Part shown: positions 11,781 to 62,320 of the stretch, piece by piece
Layout: every line of letters starts with the position of its first letter
Numbering within the stretch: the first letter of the stretch is position 1
Assembly: GCA_963808625.1 (NCBI GenBank)
Contig: CAWEHK010000024.1
Coordinates: 31,590 to 95,589 of the forward strand
Length of the DNA: 64,000 nt
Origin: an uncultured delta proteobacterium
Lineage (GTDB): Bacteria > Desulfobacterota > Syntrophobacteria > Syntrophobacterales > Syntrophobacteraceae
Direction of reading: 5' to 3'
The notes under the pieces: model-generated
What the model saw: only the letters and a program-made list of their open reading frames with translations
Database searches by the model: none
Told to the model about the DNA's origin: nothing
Program-made: the position numbers and the translations under genes

Positions 11781-11870
11781 TCAGTGGCGAGTGGCTAGTG
11801 GTTAGTGACTAGCGAGTAGCCACACTGGTTGTCAGCCACCAGCCACTAATCACTAGCCACTGATCACTGA
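11781..11870. repeat. Inverted pair of 7-mer tandem arrays (AGTGGCT / AGCCACT units)
   Basis: TCAGTGGCGAGTGGCTAGTGGTTAGTGACTAG ... CAGCCACCAGCCACTAATCACTAGCCACTGATCACTGA. Confidence 0.7.
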
Positions 11871-15476: not shown

Positions 15477-15561
15477 TTACCGCGGAGAGCGCAGAGTGCA
15501 CAGAGAGATTTCGCTCTGAGATCATTGATCTTCTCTGCGATCTCAGTGGTCTCTGCGGTAA
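15477..15561. repeat. Empty inverted-repeat element of the ACCGCAGAG family
   Basis: TTACCGCGGAGAGCGCAGAGTGCACAGAGA ... TCTCTGCGATCTCAGTGGTCTCTGCGGTAA; same family as the arms flanking the GxxExxY gene. Confidence 0.75.
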
Positions 15562-28022: not shown

Positions 28023-28088
28023 CATGGCAGGCTTTCCAGCCTGCCATGCCGAACCGGCCAAAAAGCGGGCTGGAAAGCCTGCCCCACA
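28023..28088. repeat. REP-like doublet
   Basis: GGCAGGCTTTCCAGCCTGCC ... GCGGGCTGGAAAGCCTGCCCCACA. Confidence 0.7.
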
Positions 28089-28205: not shown

Positions 28206-29973
28206 TCAAGAGGAGAGGGTTATTGTTGTTTGGTGGTTGTTTTTGCCGGGCGCGCTGCTCAGGGTATAGCTGAAAATGGTGCTTTTTGATTGCCAGAACT
28301 TCATGTAGTCTTTTGCCAGCACAAGGCTCACCACAAGCTGGGCCGTCCCGTCGTTGTTCAAGTCACCAATCCTGATGGCGGTCACCATGCCGTTGATTTC
28401 CCGGGTCTTCCAGTTTTCCACGAGCCCGAGTTGGTCCCAGGAGAGGGAGACAATTTCACTGCGGTCGTAAAATTTGAGCCCCTGCGCCAGGAACGATGCC
28501 ATGATATCCAGGGTCCGGTTCGCCACGATCTCGGGAATGTCATCATGGTTCAAATCGGTAATCAGGACGGGGGAAGGGATAGAATAATAGTCGATATCGT
28601 TGAAGCGCAAGTCATTGACCTTGGCTTCAAAAGCGTTGGTCGTGCAGGCGAATTTCCGATCGCTTCTCCACATCTGGTCACCCGCTGAATTGAGGATGAG
28701 CAAATTGTTGGAACTGTCGATCAGGATTGTCTCTTCAGAACCGTCCTTCTTGATGTCGGCTTTGGCAAAGTTAAAGACATTGCAGCGGCTCGGGAGGTGC
28801 ACCTGCACCAGGGGGGCAAGGCTGTCGCCCCGGAGTTGCATCTCATTGATTTCAGGCTGGAAGGCGCCCCTCGTCGAGTCGCCTTTCTGCTGTCCCAGAA
28901 GAACCTTACCGCGCTTTGGGAACTCAACCGTGTTGAGAAAGTAAGGCAGCCTGTCGCACACGACCTCCAGTTTGGAGCCTGCCATGCTGAGCACGAAGGA
29001 AGAAAGAAACTCTCTGCCATAGTCGGGCTGATTCTGTTGGATTTCGCTGGGCGTGGGTCGTGCACCGGTGCCTGTGCGCAGATTGGTAACGAAGATCTCC
29101 ACCTTGCCATCGCGATTGATGTCAAACACTGATACCCAGAGGTAGCGATCCGTACTCAAACCGTTGAAGGTGGCAAGGGATCTCAGTCCTGCGCCTTCTT
29201 TCCGGTAAACCATTATCTTATTCTGCGTGACCATAACCATTTCGGTGCGGCCATCGCCATCCAGATCCCCAATATCCATCCCGACAATGCCGCCCGGAAA
29301 GTCCTGGCTCCTCCAAAGCCCGGGCTGCCGGAGCGAGCCTTCGGGGGTTATTTCGATGAAATTGGGGTTAAGGTAGGAGATCTTGTCGCCGGGCAGCATC
29401 GTGGTGGGAATGAGCAGTTCCGGATTGCGAGTGGAATAGGTTTCCTGCTCCGATGGGCGCGGCTTGACCCTTGTCCCCAGGTCGTGCAAAGACTTTCTGG
29501 TTGATTTCCTGGGCGAACTGATTGACCTGGGGGATCACATCGTCGAGAGACTTGGTCTGAGAGGAAAAGGTGAGGGGGTCGCCTTTCCCGGAGAGCGGGA
29601 GCATCTTGGCGTCGATGCTGACGGCCTGACCGGCACCCGTCAGACTGCCGAAGACCACGTAGTCGGCTTTTAGGGTCCGGCCGATCCGCTGCGCATCCTC
29701 CGAAGAAATGTCGGATTTCATCCCCCGAGTCGCCTGGTCAACTGCCGCCCGGTCCAGCACCTGGACTTTCCCTTCCCAACCCAGGCGGGATGTCAACATG
29801 TCCCTGATCCCGTCCTGCAGGTACATGAGTTGGGCGGGTGTGTGCATACTGAAAGGGAGAATCGCCAGCTTTACCGGTGTGCCGGCCGGTTCGGCTGCGG
29901 CCGAGGTCGTTGCGGTAAAGATGGACATAAGAAACATTACCACCAAAATCGTCGAAAGCCTTTTTACCACCAT
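28206..29973 (-). CDS. Exported FG-GAP/VCBS-repeat protein with N-terminal TolB-N/CsgG-like domain (frameshift near 29465)
   Basis: Signal peptide; LAILPFS...GIRDMLTSRL...ADYVVFGSLT; repeated GDLDGDG, DINRDG, DLNHDD and GDLNNDG motifs. Confidence 0.75.
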
Positions 29974-30413
29974 GTTTCATTCCTCTGTGTTTAAGCTCAC
30001 GATTGCCGGTTGATCCGAGTCCCTGAATGCTTACAGGCCCGTTTTTCAACGTAGGTCATTGCCATATACTCGATTGCCGCGATTTTGGAAATGGCAAAAT
30101 GTGAGAGCATCGAGCCCTGAGGGTTTCAGAGAGAACACGCGAGGCATGATTTGAAAGGTTTCCTCTTGCCATGGTTTCCGGGCGCTCTGGGCGTGGCAAT
30201 TGAAAATTGAACAGCAATGTGAAAATTGTTTTTAATTCTTCTTGACATTTTATTTCTATACGTATATCAGAATTTCTTAAATTGTGTCAAAGGGGCTATT
30301 ATTAACCTTCTTGAAAACGAAAGGGGGTGAGAGGCAAAAGATCGCGAGTTGGTGTTCTTTTGGGGCTAGTATTGTGGTGAACAAGAATCGATTAGTTTTT
30401 GAGGAGGAAGGAA

Positions 30414-32100
30414 ATGAGAAAGTTTCTCGTTCCGTCATTGGTTATCGCTTTAGCGCTGCTTATCGCAGTGCCGTCGTTCGCCCTTGAGGTCAAGTGGGGC
30501 GGCCTGTTCCGTGCCCGTGTGATCTCTCAGTCAGTTTTCGAGGGGAATCTGGTGGGATTATGGCTATGGCAATCCGCTCACGGGAGCGGGGCGATTGACC
30601 CCACTGCGATGAGTGCAAGGACATTTGATCTTTCACAGTCGACCAATCTCGACCTGACGCAACTTACCAAAACTCCCGCCAGGGAGCATCTTTCAACCCA
30701 AGCCCAATTATCCCAACGCCGGCTACGCAAGGGGTGTACCCTATACGCAGCACCACAACCGTTTCGATCAGCGCCTGAGGATGTACATCGATTTCATCTC
30801 CAGCGAAAATCTGAAGGTCGTCACCAAATTTGAGACCCAATCCATCTGGGGTAGAAGCCACTACCTCAGAATAGCAATGGCGGCAAGCCAACACCGGTAG
30901 CGGTAATGTCGGCGCGGACTCCGGAATCCCTTAACGTGAAAAACGTCTACGCTGAATTTAAGATCCCCAACACGCCCCTTGCGGCGAGAGTGGGTGTGCA
31001 GGGTGTTGCCCTGTTAGACTCCTGGATTATTGACACGGATGTCTCCGGTGGGTTGATCATTGCGGACCTCAAGCCGGTCACGTTGATCCTCGGTTATGTC
31101 GCGGGTCAGAATTATATCACCACGACCGAAGACGAGAACATCGATGACCTGGCAGGGGCCGTGATCTACAAGCAAGGGGGCTTCACCGCAGGTCTGGTCG
31201 GGTTGTGGCAGGATGCTCACAACACGCCTGCCAGCGTTTTCCCGACGCTGGCAGCAGCCTTCGATGATCCGCTGCAGGTCAGTGTTCCCGCTTCTACGGC
31301 GATTCCCAACCCCTACCAGTACATGGTGGTCAATGGTGCTGTTGCGAATGTGCCGCAGGTCCTTGCGCAGCAGAACGATCTCATCGATGTCGGTCTGCAA
31401 TTGGGTTACAAGAACGATTTCTTGAGCGTTTACCTGAACGCCGTCAAGAACTTTGGTAGCGTACAGCTTGGCCCCAATGTGAACACGCTGTTCAATGCCG
31501 ATTACAAAGGCTGGATGGTTGACGCGGGCGCGAACTGGTTCTGCGGGCCGTTTACCCTCAACGGCGGCGGTTTCTACACCTCCGGATCGGAGCTCACCCT
31601 GGTCACGAAGAATGGCGGACTTCCGTCGAGTACCAATCCGCAAATCATTGCCAGTAACCTGGATATCGATGGCTTCACCTATCCGCTGACGCACCTCGAA
31701 GTACTTCTCGGAAATCATCGGTGGCGGTATCTTGGATAACATTGCTCCGAATGGTGGTTATTGGAGAGGCTATCCGAACCCGACCAACCTTTGGACCGTG
31801 ACTGCCGGTGGTGCCTACCAGTTCCCCACGACCAAAGTGGCCCTGTCTTACTGGTATTTCGCAACGTCAAATGCGGTACCGTCCGAGTTTGACCCCACAT
31901 TTGGGACGTGGAGTACGAGCACCAACCTCGGCCACGAAATCGACCTGAACATTACCCAGAACATCGTCGACAAGTTGAACCTTGACCTGGTCGGCGCTTA
32001 TCTGTTCCAGGGCGATGCGTACCGGACCAAGACCCTTGGCGTCGATTACAACGATGACAATACCTATGAACTCGGCGCTCGCTTGCAGTGGGCCTGGTAA
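30414..32100 (+). CDS. Outer-membrane porin-like beta-barrel protein (several frameshifts)
   Basis: Signal peptide ending SFA; NVKNVYAEF, LGHEIDLN, LDLVGAYLF; C-terminal YELGARLQWAW beta-signal; strong RBS; split over multiple frames. Confidence 0.72.
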
Positions 32101-32213: not shown

Positions 32214-32280
32214 GTGGGGCAGGCTTTCCAGCCTGCCCTGCCGAACTGGCCAAAGGGCAGGCTGGAAAGCCTGCCCCACA
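32214..32280. repeat. REP-like doublet
   Basis: GTGGGGCAGGCTTTCCAGCCTGCC ... GGCAGGCTGGAAAGCCTGCCCCAC. Confidence 0.75.
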
Positions 32281-32452: not shown

Positions 32453-33529
32453 TTGTATCTCAGACAGGTCAAGTTCCAGGATGGTTACCATTTCATCATC
32501 AGGGAATCCTACCGTGATGGTGAGGGTTGGAAGCACAAGGATGTGGCCGATCTTGGGACCACTCCGGAAAGGTACATCGAGTATACGGGAGGGAATGGTT
32601 TCTATTTCAGTGAAGAGCTGGAGGAGAGGCTTCAAACCGCGGGTCTCAAGTATTCTTCCGAGGACCTTGAAGGCCTCTTCCTGCCCTTTCTTAACCCTCG
32701 CATCCGCCGCATCATTGAAAGCTTTCAGGCGCACCCAGCAGGGCGGCATCGCCGTGAGACCATTTCCCCGCAGGAGTTGACACGGCAGCACCAGCTCCTC
32801 CACAGTTTTGACAAGCGCAGACTGCATTTCCTCCGCTGTGGACGCGTGGATATCGGTGAGCTCGACTGGCGGCCGTGGAAATTCCTCAACGTGCTCATGG
32901 AAAAGAGCCGGGATGAGATCGAGCACACCATAGAAGGGATGGAGCGGGTGTTGCGCCCCCATGAAATGCGCCCGTACCTTTTCACGGCACTGCATCTGCA
33001 AAGGCATTTCCCTGATCATCTCCTCCGCAACCACCCGGCAGCACTGGATCAGGAAACGGTGGATGGATATCTTCTTGAGGCGCTCTGTGCCGTAAATAAT
33101 GACGCGATGTTCTTTTCCGGCGTGGACAGAGGTGATCGCGCCACCCTCCATCCTTTTCTGTCCAGATATCTCATTCTCTATTTCGATTCCGACTTTGAGC
33201 GCGATGAGTGGCCGGAATCCCTCAGGCAATTCATGCACCGCCGGCACGCTTACCGGCGCCCGCCTGCCGTGCAGCGCATGGACATGGAGGAGGCCTGCAG
33301 GGTGTTTGGCATCAGCAGAGAAGATGTGGGAAAAATGAAGGATGGCGAACTGGTCAGGATGTACCGAAAAAAGGCAAAAGCTCTCCATCCGGACAAGGGC
33401 GGGGACAAGGAATCCTTCATCCGCATGGCGGAGGCGTTTGGCTGCCTCGTGGAAAGAGCAGCGGCTAGCGAAGCTCCTCTTCAACGATGTCGTGGACCAG
33501 GGAATAGGGATCAGCTTCCTTGTCCATGA
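32453..33529 (+). CDS. Protein with C-terminal J domain (class C J-protein)
   Basis: EEACRVFGI...YRKKAKALHPDKGGDKESFIRMAEAF; TTG start with GGAGG RBS. Confidence 0.78.
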   Translation: MYLRQVKFQDGYHFIIRESYRDGEGWKHKDVADLGTTPERYIEYTGGNGFYFSEELEERLQTAGLKYSSEDLEGLFLPFLNPRIRRIIESFQAHPAGRHRRETISPQELTRQHQLLHSFDKRRLHFLRCGRVDIGELDWRPWKFLNVLMEKSRDEIEHTIEGMERVLRPHEMRPYLFTALHLQRHFPDHLLRNHPAALDQETVDGYLLEALCAVNNDAMFFSGVDRGDRATLHPFLSRYLILYFDSDFERDEWPESLRQFMHRRHAYRRPPAVQRMDMEEACRVFGISREDVGKMKDGELVRMYRKKAKALHPDKGGDKESFIRMAEAFGCLVERAAASEAPLQRCRGPGNRDQLPCP

Positions 33530-34418
33530 TCTTCTGGATCAAAGCGTCCAGTGACACGCCCCGATTCTCCAGCCGTTCGACGATGGTCCTCAGGATCTGG
33601 TCTCTCAAAGCTTCGATGAGTTGGTTTCGGGCGCGCTTCCAGAGCACTTCGCTGAGCTGTTGCGGGTGGGCGCGCAAGTATTCCCGGTGTTTTTGAATGT
33701 TGCTGTAAAGCTCCTCAAGACCGCGTCCTTTGAGGGCTTCCGTCTCGACGATCAGGGGCTCCCATCCGTTTTCCGTGCGCCGCCGCAGGCCCAGTTCGAT
33801 GAGCGTGCGCAATTCCCGGACCGTCTTGCGCGACCCCTCGCGATCGGCCTTGTTAACGACAAAAATGTTCCCGATTTCCATGATGCCGGCCTTGATCGCC
33901 TGCACCTCGTCACCCATGCCGGGTACCGTGACAAGAACGGTAGTATGGGCGCTATTGGCGATTTCCACTTCATCCTGGCCAACGCCAACCGTTTCCACGA
34001 GAATCATGTCTTTTCCCATGGCGTCCAGAACGTTGATCATGTCATTGGTAGAGCGGGTGAGTCCGCCGAAGTGACCGCGGGTCGCCAGACTGCGAATGAA
34101 GACGCCGCTATCGAGGAAATGGCGCTGCATGCGGATGCGATCGCCGAGGATGGCGCCGCCGGTAAAGGGGCTGGTGGGATCGACCGCCAGGATGCCGACC
34201 GTCAGGCCGTCCTGTCGATAGCGGAAGGCTATCTGGTCGACAAGGGTGCTCTTGCCAACTCCGGGAGACCCGGTAAAGCCAATCACATGAGCTTTTCCCG
34301 TGTGGGGGTAAAGCTCTTTCATGATTTCTCGAGCCGAGGGAATCTGGTCGTCAATATCTCGAAGCAGACGTGCGGTTGCCCGCACATCGCCTGCCACAAT
34401 CCGTTCCGCAATGCTCAT
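33465..34418 (-). CDS. meaB: Acyl-CoA mutase-associated GTPase MeaB/ArgK
   Basis: GFTGSPGVGKSTL, AVDPTSPFTGGAILGDRIRM, ETVGVGQDE, NKAD. Confidence 0.95.
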   Translation of the reverse strand: MSIAERIVAGDVRATARLLRDIDDQIPSAREIMKELYPHTGKAHVIGFTGSPGVGKSTLVDQIAFRYRQDGLTVGILAVDPTSPFTGGAILGDRIRMQRHFLDSGVFIRSLATRGHFGGLTRSTNDMINVLDAMGKDMILVETVGVGQDEVEIANSAHTTVLVTVPGMGDEVQAIKAGIMEIGNIFVVNKADREGSRKTVRELRTLIELGLRRRTENGWEPLIVETEALKGRGLEELYSNIQKHREYLRAHPQQLSEVLWKRARNQLIEALRDQILRTIVERLENRGVSLDALIQKIMDKEADPYSLVHDIVEEELR

Positions 34419-34433
34419 TCTTTAAAGCCTTTC

Positions 34434-34908
34434 TTTCACCGCAGAGACGCAGAGAGCGCAGAGAGAAGCGCAAAAATTCTTGCTGCGGTTTACTCTTTCA
34501 AGCCTAATACGATTCTCTTAATACCATCTTTTAATGCTGGGACGTTGAAATTAATCAGCAGGCCGACGGGCCATCCGCCAAGCTTGAGGTAGGTAAGAAC
34601 TTGGGCTTCGTGAATCGGCAGCAGCGCTTCGACGGCCTTGATCTCAACCACCACTGAATTTGACACCAGGCAATCGAGGCGATAACCACAATCAAGCATC
34701 ACTTCTTTAAACACGACAGGTAATGCTTTCTGCCTCTCAAAGAGAAGGCCCCTCAGCCCCAATTCATGACAGAGACATTCCTCATACGCAGATTCCAAAA
34801 GACCCGGTCCCAATGCCCGGTGCACCTCCATCGCTGCCCCAATGACTTCTCTTGTTACGTCATTGATTTGCATCTCTTCTCTGCGTTCTCTGCGTCTCTG
34901 CGGTGAAA
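34434..34908. mobile_element. GxxExxY cassette bounded by 31-bp inverted repeats
   Basis: TTTCACCGCAGAGACGCAGAGAGCGCAGAGA (34434-34464) and its reverse complement at 34878-34908 (30/31 identical) enclose a single ORF; mobility is inferred. Confidence 0.6.
34490..34873 (-). CDS. GxxExxY protein (PD-(D/E)XK-like family)
   Basis: [49 protein letters not shown]. Confidence 0.92.
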
Positions 34909-34914
34909 CTCTTC

Positions 34915-35330
34915 TTATATAGCCTTGCGCGGCTTCACATTCTCGCCGACCCAGGTGGTGATCTCCTGAAGCTTGGCACCGGGCTCGAATATTTCCTTAA
35001 TCCCGATCGCTTTCAATTTGGGGATATCCTCCAGCGGGAAAATGCCGCCCCCGATGACCGTGATATCTTCCGCACTGTTTTCTCTGAAGCAGTTCCAAGA
35101 TCTCGTGGAAACGAATAGGTGTGAGCGCCGGAGAGGATACTCAGGCCGATCATATCGACGTCTTCCTGGATTGCCGTGCTGACAATTTGTTCGGGAGTCT
35201 GGTGACAGCCCGTGTAGATTACCTCAAAACCGGCATCGCGAAAAGCCCGGGCGATCACGCGGGCGCCGCGATCATGTCCATCCAGACCTGGCTTGGCAAT
35301 CAATATACGCAGATTCCTTTCTCTTTCCAT
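34915..35330 (-). CDS. Acyl-CoA mutase small, cobalamin-binding subunit (two +1 frameshifts near 35090-35105)
   Basis: [10 protein letters not shown] (DxHxxG), GLSILSGAH; corrected frame continues [27 protein letters not shown]. Confidence 0.9.
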
Positions 35331-44185: not shown

Positions 44186-44319
44186 AACCGGGCTTGCAGG
44201 AGCCCGTTAGAGGTTCTGTTTCAGTACAGCTCAAAACGTGTTACATAACGCGTGCTGTTAAGAAAGCACAACAACAGGCAGGAGGCAAGGGGGCGTCCAA
44301 AAATATAAGGCCTTCTTTT

Positions 44320-44379
44320 ACCACGAAGAACACGAAGAACACGAAGAGCACGAAGTGATTTCTTCGTGTTCTTCGTGGT
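44320..44379. repeat. Inverted-repeat element of 9-mer units (CACGAAGAR)
   Basis: ACCACGAAGAA CACGAAGAA CACGAAGAG CACGAAG tgatt TCTTCGTG TTCTTCGTGGT. Confidence 0.75.
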
Positions 44380-44479
44380 TCAAAAAAGGGCTGAAGTGAG
44401 TGCAAGTTGTTTATGGAGAGTCTCGAACCGGCATGGCTTGGGACCTGCATCCGTCGTTCGTTGTGACCCCAGCCAGAAG

Positions 44480-47469: not shown

Positions 47470-47499
47470 TTCACCGCAGAGACGCAGAGGTCGCAGAGA
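47470..47499. repeat. Solo arm of the ACCGCAGAG repeat family
   Basis: TTCACCGCAGAGACGCAGAGGTCGCAGAGA; first 20 nt identical to the GxxExxY-flanking arms. Confidence 0.75.
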
Positions 47500-49686: not shown

Positions 49687-49785
49687 GTTCCCATCCGGAA
49701 AGTGGCGCCTTGTTCTGTAGGAGGGGCTTCCAGCCCCGATCGCGGCTGGAAGCCCCTCCTACAAAATGGGGTTTCCGGATGGACA
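49687..49785. mobile_element. MITE-like element enclosing a REP palindrome
   Basis: CCATCCGGAAA / TTTCCGGATGG IR; inner 20-bp perfect IR TGTAGGAGGGGCTTCCAGCC (49716-49763); CTAACTC direct repeat at 49680-49686 and 49786-49792. Confidence 0.5.
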
Positions 49786-62115: not shown

Positions 62116-62320
62116 TCACGCACTCCTCGTTTTCAGCGCGCTGGTTTGCGCATCCTCCTGTTCACTGCAGAAGCCGCAGAGATGATGGAGGTGTCATCCT
62201 TACGCCGGTATGACAGACCGAATTCGGCTGCGTATTCGGATGGGAAACACTCAGCCCGGCACCCGGAGACCGGGCGCGGGGCTGAGTGCGGTGGCATTGA
62301 CGGGCATCGGAAAAAGGAGA

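What the first reader, a model, noticed from the sequence alone, without database searches (positions are those of the whole stretch)
34434..34908. GxxExxY gene packaged between 31-bp periodic inverted repeats: candidate nuclease-in-a-hairpin mobile cassette
Seen: a 127-aa GxxExxY ORF is enclosed by near-perfect inverted arms (30/31) built from tandem CGCAGAGA(G/A) units. Its ATG lies 4 bp inside one arm and its stop 25 bp inside the other. The 475-bp unit sits in a tiny gap, 6 bp after the mutase small-subunit stop and 15 bp before the meaB start, without damaging either gene. The same arm recurs elsewhere with no gene: an empty pair at 15477-15561, a solo arm at 47470-47499 and a degenerate arm at 62161-62184. 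Known: GxxExxY proteins are a functionally uncharacterised PD-(D/E)XK-like family with no role in B12 mutase biology. Inference: this looks like an autonomous element plus non-autonomous derivatives, analogous to RAYT/REP. The small nuclease may spread or exchange the hairpin cassettes, or the arms may pair in the mRNA and loop out the ORF so the host operon stays functional.
Basis: partly seen in the sequence, partly recalled or inferred. Interest (0 to 1): 0.85.

Follow-up and report, generated by a model that had tools for sequence, protein, structure and literature searches.

The report
Mini-nuclease gene with matching repeat arms
A small gene with the fold of a DNA-cutting enzyme sits inside a B12-enzyme operon between mirror-image repeat arrays, and gene-less copies of those arrays multiply mainly in genomes that carry the matching version of the gene, which points to an undescribed enzyme-and-repeat partnership whose activity is not yet shown.

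Summary
Observation confirmed. A 127-aa GxxExxY gene (TIGR04256/PF13366, intact PD-(D/E)XK residues) lies between 31-bp inverted arms built of CRCAGAG units; 28 of 29 relatives lack it at this junction, one with a 19-bp empty gap. Homologues are arm-flanked in 53 of 79 loci (control 0 of 263). Arm type follows protein clade across phyla, and two arm families each expand mainly where their own clade's gene is present (14 of 21 vs 1 of 10; 8 of 10 vs 1 of 21). This genome holds about 100 such arms, nearly all gene-less. Cassettes sit co-oriented, usually 0-13 nt after a host stop codon. Best reading: it works like RAYT/REPIN with an unrelated restriction-fold nuclease; binding, cutting and mobilisation are inferred, not shown. 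The arm was catalogued in Geobacter without a gene link; I found no paper on the link. This scan noted the class before on at least 10 other genomes.

The parts
34434..34464 (+). Downstream arm: TTTC-ACC plus three CGCAGAG units (periods 8 and 9), pointing inward
34490..34873 (-). GxxExxY gene, 127 aa, PD-(D/E)XK fold; E27, Y30, D67, E77, K79 intact
34878..34908 (-). Upstream arm, starts 6 bp after the host stop codon; purine-rich inner end lies directly before the ATG
33465..34418 (-). meaB (host gene downstream; the 15 bp before its ATG are host sequence kept in the empty allele)
34915..35330 (-). B12-binding small subunit of the acyl-CoA mutase (host gene upstream; one-base frameshift near 35100, probably assembly error)
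15477..15561 (.). Gene-less pair of the same arm family (9+9 subfamily); this arm family is absent at the same site in G001, G002, G006, G007
47470..47499 (+). Solo arm; absent at the same site in G001, G002, G006, G007
62161..62184 (+). Degenerate solo arm, intergenic
44313..44386 (.). Gene-less pair of the sister CACGAAG arm family, which goes with another GxxExxY clade

Best explanation
The 475-bp unit is the gene-bearing form of a repeat system. The arms are inverted arrays of a 7-bp site (CRCAGAG here; CACGAAG, CRCAAAG, CAGGAT, CRCRRAT in other clades) that the encoded PD-(D/E)XK protein recognises on DNA. The cassette has no promoter of its own, sits just after a host stop codon in the same direction and is expressed on the host transcript. 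Internal deletion turns cassettes into short gene-less hairpins, and the cognate protein acts on these in trans (nicking or cutting at the arrays, with host repair doing the joining), which keeps a population of tens to hundreds of copies. Shown: anatomy, insertion status, clade-matched arms, copy number tied to the cognate clade, purifying selection, conserved catalytic residues, deletion derivatives. Inferred: binding, cutting, and that cutting spreads the copies.
For: Empty junction in 28 of 29 relatives, 19-bp gap in G002. Arms at 53 of 79 homologues vs 0 of 263 control windows. Of 1515 small genes called in this genome 8 are IR-flanked: 3 GxxExxY, 2 four-helix-bundle, 1 RAYT, 1 GIY-YIG, 1 host gene. 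Arm label needs 38 changes on a 200-protein tree vs 87.8 shuffled; paralogues in one genome carry different arms; the same arm type occurs in many phyla although silent sites are saturated. At least 10 AGAG arms in 19 of 27 genomes with a close homologue, 8 of 43 with distant ones only, 0 of 25 with none. Double dissociation of two arm families. D67/E77/K79 kept in 197, 199, 199 of 200; dN/dS 0.05-0.16. Motif positions, not linker positions, agree between the two arms. Upstream gene co-oriented in 30 of 32; arm within 13 nt of the stop in 19 of 30. Internally deleted copies at C33, C54, C17.
Against: No activity data. No target duplication or fixed end in most cassettes (10 of 72 vs 4.8 shuffled, max 10; G000 pairs 3 of 60 vs 7.0), and no recent self-made jump was found. 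The one clear burst is IS66-driven. 8 of 27 genomes with a close homologue have 3 or fewer arms and 5 of 56 genomes with neither clade have 10 or more of each family. 30 of 200 homologues show no arm. Gene and arms travel together, so clade matching alone does not prove recognition; no residue co-varied with the arm motif independently of phylogeny. Many gene-less copies here lie inside longer shared units that may have other movers. Genomes compared are kin and mostly draft assemblies.
Confidence: 0.58

Rival explanations
1. Passenger model: the hairpins and cassettes are moved by ordinary IS transposases or as parts of larger MITEs; GxxExxY is cargo that stays linked to its arms for historical reasons or uses them only to regulate itself.
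For: In G090 the cassette has acquired ends that share GTAANCGTTCACC-like 13-mers with a resident 2376-bp IS66; 7 of 12 elements with both ends have perfect 8-bp duplications, as do 10 of 11 IS66 copies, and all 8 aligned copies have a lesion in the GxxExxY motif. Subfamilies of gene-less copies in G000 share 40-50 bp beyond the arms. Unrelated hairpin types occupy the same junctions in G007.
Against: IS66-like ends on both sides in only 8 of 72 cassettes and at 1 of 120 G000 arm ends. It does not explain why each arm family expands with its own protein clade or why catalytic residues are kept.
Confidence: 0.17
2. RNA model: the arms pair in the transcript, loop out the ORF, and RNase III or the protein itself cuts the stem, so the element is harmless or regulates the operon.
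For: The transcript can form a ~30-bp closing stem that buries the start region (z -3.9). Cassettes are co-oriented and follow stop codons. Four-helix-bundle (23S IVS family) genes in the same genome are also IR-flanked.
Against: Among arm mismatches on the sense strand 77 are G-U type and 73 A-C type (59 cassettes), and linker bases agree between arms no more than in shuffled pairs (11, 12, 10 of 21 vs 9.8, 8.8, 8.6). Pairing may still occur as a side effect and damp translation.
Confidence: 0.1
3. Domesticated host function: the nuclease serves the host (repair, defence or processing of hairpin/cruciform DNA) and the arrays are its operator or loading sites; their spread is secondary.
For: Strong purifying selection, chromosomal location (8 of 72,556 plasmids, 0 of 50,697 phages), weak structural matches to Cas4, Hjc and restriction enzymes. 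RAYTs were argued to be domesticated on similar grounds (bioRxiv 10.1101/119735, abstract).
Against: Patchy presence, unrelated neighbours in nearly every genome, frequent decay (12 of 200 with internal stops; 5 of 9 matches in G000 partial).
Confidence: 0.11
4. Host regulator sites: the paired arrays are binding sites of a global transcription factor, as proposed for similar paired tandem arrays in Geobacter metallireducens, and the gene is incidental.
For: PMC2700814 (passages) calls paired octa- and heptanucleotide arrays 'predicted global regulator binding sites'. The arrays are intergenic (1 of 60 pairs inside a called gene).
Against: The same arm accompanies the same protein clade in many phyla, while one genome holds four arm types matched to four paralogues. 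Sites are not kept at orthologous positions within the genus and lie nearer stops than starts.
Confidence: 0.04

Closest known systems
REP/REPIN with RAYT (TnpA-REP) genes (PMC3116915, PMC8266576, bioRxiv 10.1101/119735; abstracts read)
   Same: One gene flanked by inverted cognate repeats; many gene-less inverted doublets in extragenic space; gene group and repeat type go together; chromosomal, rare on plasmids.
   Different: Protein is PD-(D/E)XK, not an HUH tyrosine transposase; each arm is a non-palindromic tandem array of a 7-mer with no GTAG/CGTC tag; cassettes sit at unrelated operon junctions in different genomes.
Nonanucleotide repeats of Geobacter bemidjiensis (PMC2996986, Table S6 lines seen; consensus TTT[WCCTCTGTGR0-1Y0-1]nGTGAG)
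   Same: By my comparison its reverse complement is this arm (CTCAC..CACAGAG units); intergenic, multicopy, often listed in pairs.
   Different: In the passages and table lines I saw it is catalogued as a multicopy sequence with no link to a gene or mechanism.
TIGR04256 GxxExxY / PF13366 PDDEXK_3
   Same: The protein is a full member.
   Different: Function listed as unknown, with many transfers between phyla (PMC3424549, table row seen); no repeat association mentioned there.
IS66 and IS-derived MITEs
   Same: A subclade in relatives has IS66-like ends and 8-bp duplications (IS66 elements listed with 8-bp repeats in PMC3281130, passage seen).
   Different: The window's cassette and most others have neither; no DDE transposase is encoded.
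23S rRNA intervening sequences with four-helix-bundle ORF (PF05635)
   Same: Small ORF enclosed by a long stem inside a host transcript (recalled).
   Different: Not in rRNA, unrelated protein, no sign of selection for RNA pairing.
Free-standing PD-(D/E)XK nucleases in mobile DNA (TnsA, I-Ssp6803I homing endonuclease; recalled)
   Same: Fold class and a mobile context.
   Different: No partner transposase or intron, no fixed target gene; no close structural match (best Z 8.1, rmsd 3.3, 94 aligned).

Membership tests
TIGR04256 / PF13366 | Score above curated cut-off, GxxExxY motif, about 130 aa | tested here: met
   153 bits vs 35 and 149 vs 22; GLLESAY; 127 aa
PD-(D/E)XK nuclease superfamily | Core fold with D...(D/E)xK catalytic residues | tested here: met
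   Model pLDDT 94; top matches are PD-(D/E)XK nucleases at Z 6-8; D67, E77, K79 in 197-199 of 200
PD-(D/E)XK nuclease superfamily | Nuclease activity | not testable with these tools
   Needs purified protein
RAYT / REPtron | HUH (Y1) tyrosine transposase | tested here: not met
   Only TIGR04256/PF13366 hit; a true RAYT elsewhere in the genome scores on NF047646
REP / REPIN | Each repeat is itself a palindrome with a GTAG- or CGTC-type tag | tested here: not met
   Single arm does not fold (z -0.5); arm is a tandem 7-mer array
REP / REPIN | Many extragenic inverted doublets, type matched to the flanked gene | tested here: met
   86 convergent pairs, 80 of them within 271 bp; clade match and copy-number link
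Insertion sequence / MITE | Target-site duplication and fixed ends | tested here: not met
   Not above shuffled in G000 pairs or in cassettes overall; met only in the IS66-ended subclade. For this locus the empty allele is too diverged to see a short duplication
Insertion sequence / MITE | Encoded DDE, HUH or serine transposase | tested here: not met
Intervening sequence (IVS) | Stem selected for RNA pairing and excised from the transcript | tested here: inconclusive
   Pairing selection not seen; excision not testable here
Homing endonuclease | Fixed cognate target cut in the empty allele | tested here: inconclusive
   Neighbours are unrelated across genomes, but silent-site divergence to G007 is lower in the gene (9 of 57) than in its flanks (162 of 438), which recent exchange at this site would give
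Known Rfam family | Match at gathering score | tested here: not met
   0 matches in the window

The most novel reading that the evidence does not exclude
GxxExxY proteins are minimal, clade-specific restriction-fold nucleases that recognise inverted 7-mer arrays and mobilise both their own cassette and gene-less hairpins without a transposase or target duplication: a second, independently evolved solution to the RAYT/REPIN way of life, with several orthogonal protein-array pairs coexisting in one genome.
Probability: 0.45. Interest if true: 0.88.

Novelty: categorically new. Interest (0 to 1): 0.74.

Why it matters
It gives a widespread family of unknown function (TIGR04256) a concrete candidate substrate that can be ordered as an oligonucleotide, with built-in specificity controls (other clades' arrays). 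It offers a source for a class of abundant intergenic hairpins in anaerobic and soil bacteria that were earlier read as regulator sites. If the protein does spread the arrays, small-repeat mobility is not limited to HUH transposases, and a 127-aa nuclease with orthogonal sequence preferences would be of interest as a tool. The IS66 case warns that target duplications around such cassettes cannot be credited to the nuclease.

Tried and rejected
Sequencing runs: no RNA holder listed; the four DNA runs laid hold only small shares and mostly other organisms' hairpins, so the 'joints' there are gene-less copies, not excision. Residue-motif covariation: nothing independent of phylogeny. Target duplications in G000 pairs: none above shuffled; the apparent ones in the CACGAAG family come from shared flanks. 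Cargo idea: the 1.5-kb pair on C8/C9 is one duplicated stretch with separate arms around a host gene, and C34's 1.7-kb pair is similar. Promoter scan: 1 site vs 0.7 expected. Foldseek gave no match at E 0.001; Hjc and Cas4 matches are tied with many others, so no subfamily is assigned. A homodimer prediction could not be run, so the oligomeric state is open. The careful tree did not finish; the quick tree has few supported forks. Literature: searches found no paper linking GxxExxY to repeats; the library lacks most subscription papers, bioRxiv supplements were closed, and of the Geobacter supplements I saw only search hits in Table S6 and one unrelated figure file. The E. coli work on REPs near stop codons is recalled; one search did not retrieve it.

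Full report
Observation. The arms at 34434-34464 and 34878-34908 match at 30 of 31 positions. They enclose a 127-aa ORF on the minus strand that scores 153 bits on TIGR04256 and 149 on PF13366. Upstream lie the large and small subunits of a B12 acyl-CoA mutase, downstream meaB, all on the same strand. Each arm is TTTC-ACC plus three CGCAGAG units. A single arm does not fold (z -0.5); the pair closes a ~30-bp stem on the transcript (z -3.9). Rfam has no match in the window. The best titled relatives of the protein are Syntrophobacteraceae MAGs.

It is an insertion. Of 29 relatives whose meaB locus was fetched (the best 30 loci of 41 genomes searched, this genome included), only G007 has the cassette; G002, same genus, has a 19-bp gap whose last 15 bases match the 15 bases kept here before meaB. 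The empty allele is too diverged to show exact ends. The gene is under purifying selection (dN/dS 0.16 to G007, 0.05-0.08 to three other close copies). Its fourfold-site divergence to G007 is 9 of 57 against 162 of 438 in the flanking genes (p 0.001), which suggests exchange or re-entry at this site after the two lineages split; codon constraint is another reading. The G007 copy has lost the nearly invariant Y95.

The gene-arm link is general. Of 80 close homologues from many phyla, 79 had enough flank; 53 had an inverted-repeat score of 14 or more, against 0 of 263 shifted windows. A fairer control: among 1515 small genes from my rough gene calls in this genome only 8 reach that score, and they are 3 GxxExxY paralogues, 2 four-helix-bundle genes, a RAYT, a GIY-YIG gene and one host gene (the window's gene was mis-called and is not among the 1515). 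In a wider set of 200 homologues (7 dropped for short flanks, 4 as duplicates) arms were found on both sides in 105, one side in 65, neither in 30. Named cultured examples: radA-cassette in Bacteroides finegoldii with the same AGAG arm, and fabD-cassette-fabG in Sphingomonas parapaucimobilis with CGCGAAG arms.

Arm type follows the protein, not the host. On the 200-protein tree the arm label needs 38 changes against 87.8 shuffled (0 of 200 as low; quick tree, few supported forks). The four full-length paralogues in this genome carry four different arm types. The AGAG arm is kept almost letter for letter at 60-70% protein identity, where silent sites are saturated.

Gene-less copies and their dependence. 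The genome has 57 exact copies of the 17-mer (0 in 3 shuffles) and 101 three-unit arms; with a loose pattern 86 convergent pairs, 80 of them within 271 bp (that pattern also gives 81 hits in a shuffled genome, so solo counts from it are unreliable). One of 60 pairs lies inside a called gene. The two sites checked in the window are empty or hold an unrelated hairpin in same-genus genomes. Three short elements are cassettes with the middle of the gene deleted (C33, C54, C17). Over 95 relatives, 10 or more AGAG arms occur in 19 of 27 genomes with a close homologue, 8 of 43 with distant ones only and 0 of 25 with none. A second family gives a double dissociation: with only the AGAG-clade gene, AGAG arms are expanded in 14 of 21 and CACGAAG arms in 1 of 21; with only the CACGAAG-clade gene, 1 of 10 and 8 of 10; with neither, 5 of 56 each (clade calls made by me from identity and the tree). 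These genomes are kin and mostly drafts, so the p-values overstate. In an unbiased sample of arms (80 of 124 metagenome loci and 80 of 119 viral loci had flanks), 3 and 0 enclosed a GxxExxY gene, 36 and 42 were gene-less pairs. The gene is on 8 of 72,556 plasmids and 0 of 50,697 phages.

Position. Among the 48 best-armed loci, the upstream neighbour could be identified by Pfam in 32 and is co-oriented in 30 (baseline about 72%, p 0.002); downstream 21 of 26. Neighbours are unrelated housekeeping genes, often tight operon pairs. The arm starts within 13 nt of the host stop in 19 of 30 (18 by script, one by eye). This fits a promoterless cassette that survives where it is transcribed and leaves both host genes intact; the short distance may simply follow from the geometry of small operon gaps.

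What the arms are for. In 59 cassettes the left-right mismatches on the sense strand are 77 G-U type and 73 A-C type. In 21 cassettes of one register the motif purines agree between arms (21, 19, 18 of 21 vs about 10.5 shuffled) while linker bases do not (11, 12, 10 vs 9.8, 8.8, 8.6). The conserved thing is therefore the 7-mer, as expected for protein sites on DNA, not a perfect RNA stem. The protein models confidently as a PD-(D/E)XK core (pLDDT 94; best Z 8.1, rmsd 3.3, 94 aligned, with restriction enzymes, Cas4 and Hjc tied below), and E27, D67, E77, K79 are kept in 197-199 of 200. No residue tracked the motif independently of phylogeny.

How it moves: the main gap. Direct repeats of 6 bp or more flank 10 of 72 cassettes (shuffled mean 4.8, max 10) and 3 of 60 G000 pairs (shuffled 7.0). 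The exception is informative. Relative G090 has at least 8 near-identical cassettes at unrelated loci with sharp ends. Those ends share a 13-base motif with a resident 2376-bp IS66; 7 of 12 elements with both ends (from the first 30 of 69 end matches) have perfect 8-bp duplications, as do 10 of 11 IS66 copies, and the 8 aligned copies carry Y30C (7) or E27T (1). That burst is IS66 acting in trans on a disabled cassette. IS66-like ends are rare elsewhere (both ends in 8 of 72; 1 of 120 G000 arm ends). Many G000 copies also share sequence beyond the arms, so other movers may contribute.

Comparison. It works like RAYT/REPIN (PMC3116915, PMC8266576, bioRxiv 10.1101/119735; abstracts seen) but fails membership: no HUH transposase, no palindromic tagged repeat (PMC3733652, passages seen). 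It is not an IS or MITE in general, and not an IVS. The arm itself matches, by my comparison, the nonanucleotide repeat listed for Geobacter bemidjiensis (PMC2996986, passages and Table S6 hits), and similar paired arrays were read as regulator sites in G. metallireducens (PMC2700814, passages). PF13366 is listed as unknown with many transfers (PMC3424549, table row); another paper mentions GxxExxY only as a Cas4 look-alike (10.1101/2021.01.26.428298, passage). Searches found no description of the gene-repeat link. Earlier notes of this scan report the same class on at least 10 genomes; none came up for the IS66 route.

Verdict. Real, and part of a widespread gene-plus-repeat system that I could not find described. 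The partnership is well supported; the chemistry and the mode of spread are inferred.

Noticed in passing
G090, loci L125, L144, L145, L147, L149, L150, L152, L154, L239-L283: GxxExxY cassettes and short derivatives with IS66-like ends and 8-bp duplications beside an active 11-copy IS66; motif-damaged copies.
   Followed up: yes
G000:C29:189369-189749 and C50:166344-166709 (L598, L599); window 11781-11870: Four-helix-bundle (TIGR02436/PF05635) genes are flanked by inverted arrays of 7-mers, and a gene-less 7-mer hairpin lies in the window: a parallel gene-plus-array system.
   Followed up: partly
G000:C44:2703-2993 (L601): A 96-aa GIY-YIG gene flanked by inverted GTCATTCC-type repeats, a motif also seen at several meaB junctions of relatives.
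   Followed up: partly
window 15477, 47470, 34419-34914 and their orthologous sites: The same operon junctions hold different hairpin families in different species of the genus: hotspots with turnover.
   Followed up: partly
window 28026-28083, 32214-32279, 49713-49766: REP-like hairpins (GGCAGGCTTTCCAGCC, GTAGGAG types); a RAYT gene is at G000:C25:84397-84882.
   Followed up: no
G000, about 25 copies such as C1:25938, C4:37083, C46:4661: A subfamily of AGAG hairpins shares 40-50 bp beyond the arms, ending in TATACTCGTT-like termini on both sides; possibly a MITE carrying the hairpin.
   Followed up: no
L479:801-1217 (also L515, L536): In viral contigs a pair of AGAG arms, with a CACGAAG arm nested inside, encloses a small phage gene instead of GxxExxY.
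   Followed up: partly
window ~35100, 28206-29973, 30399-32100: Several apparent frameshifts (mutase small subunit, an outer-membrane protein, a VCBS-like protein) suggest indel errors in the assembly.
   Followed up: partly
G000:C19:103768-104453: CGCGAAT-armed paralogue followed by a 149-bp partial tandem copy of its own start.
   Followed up: no
G000:C8:93000-95133 and C9:22610-24743: 2134 bp identical in two contigs, at the end of C9; duplicate or assembly overlap.
   Followed up: partly
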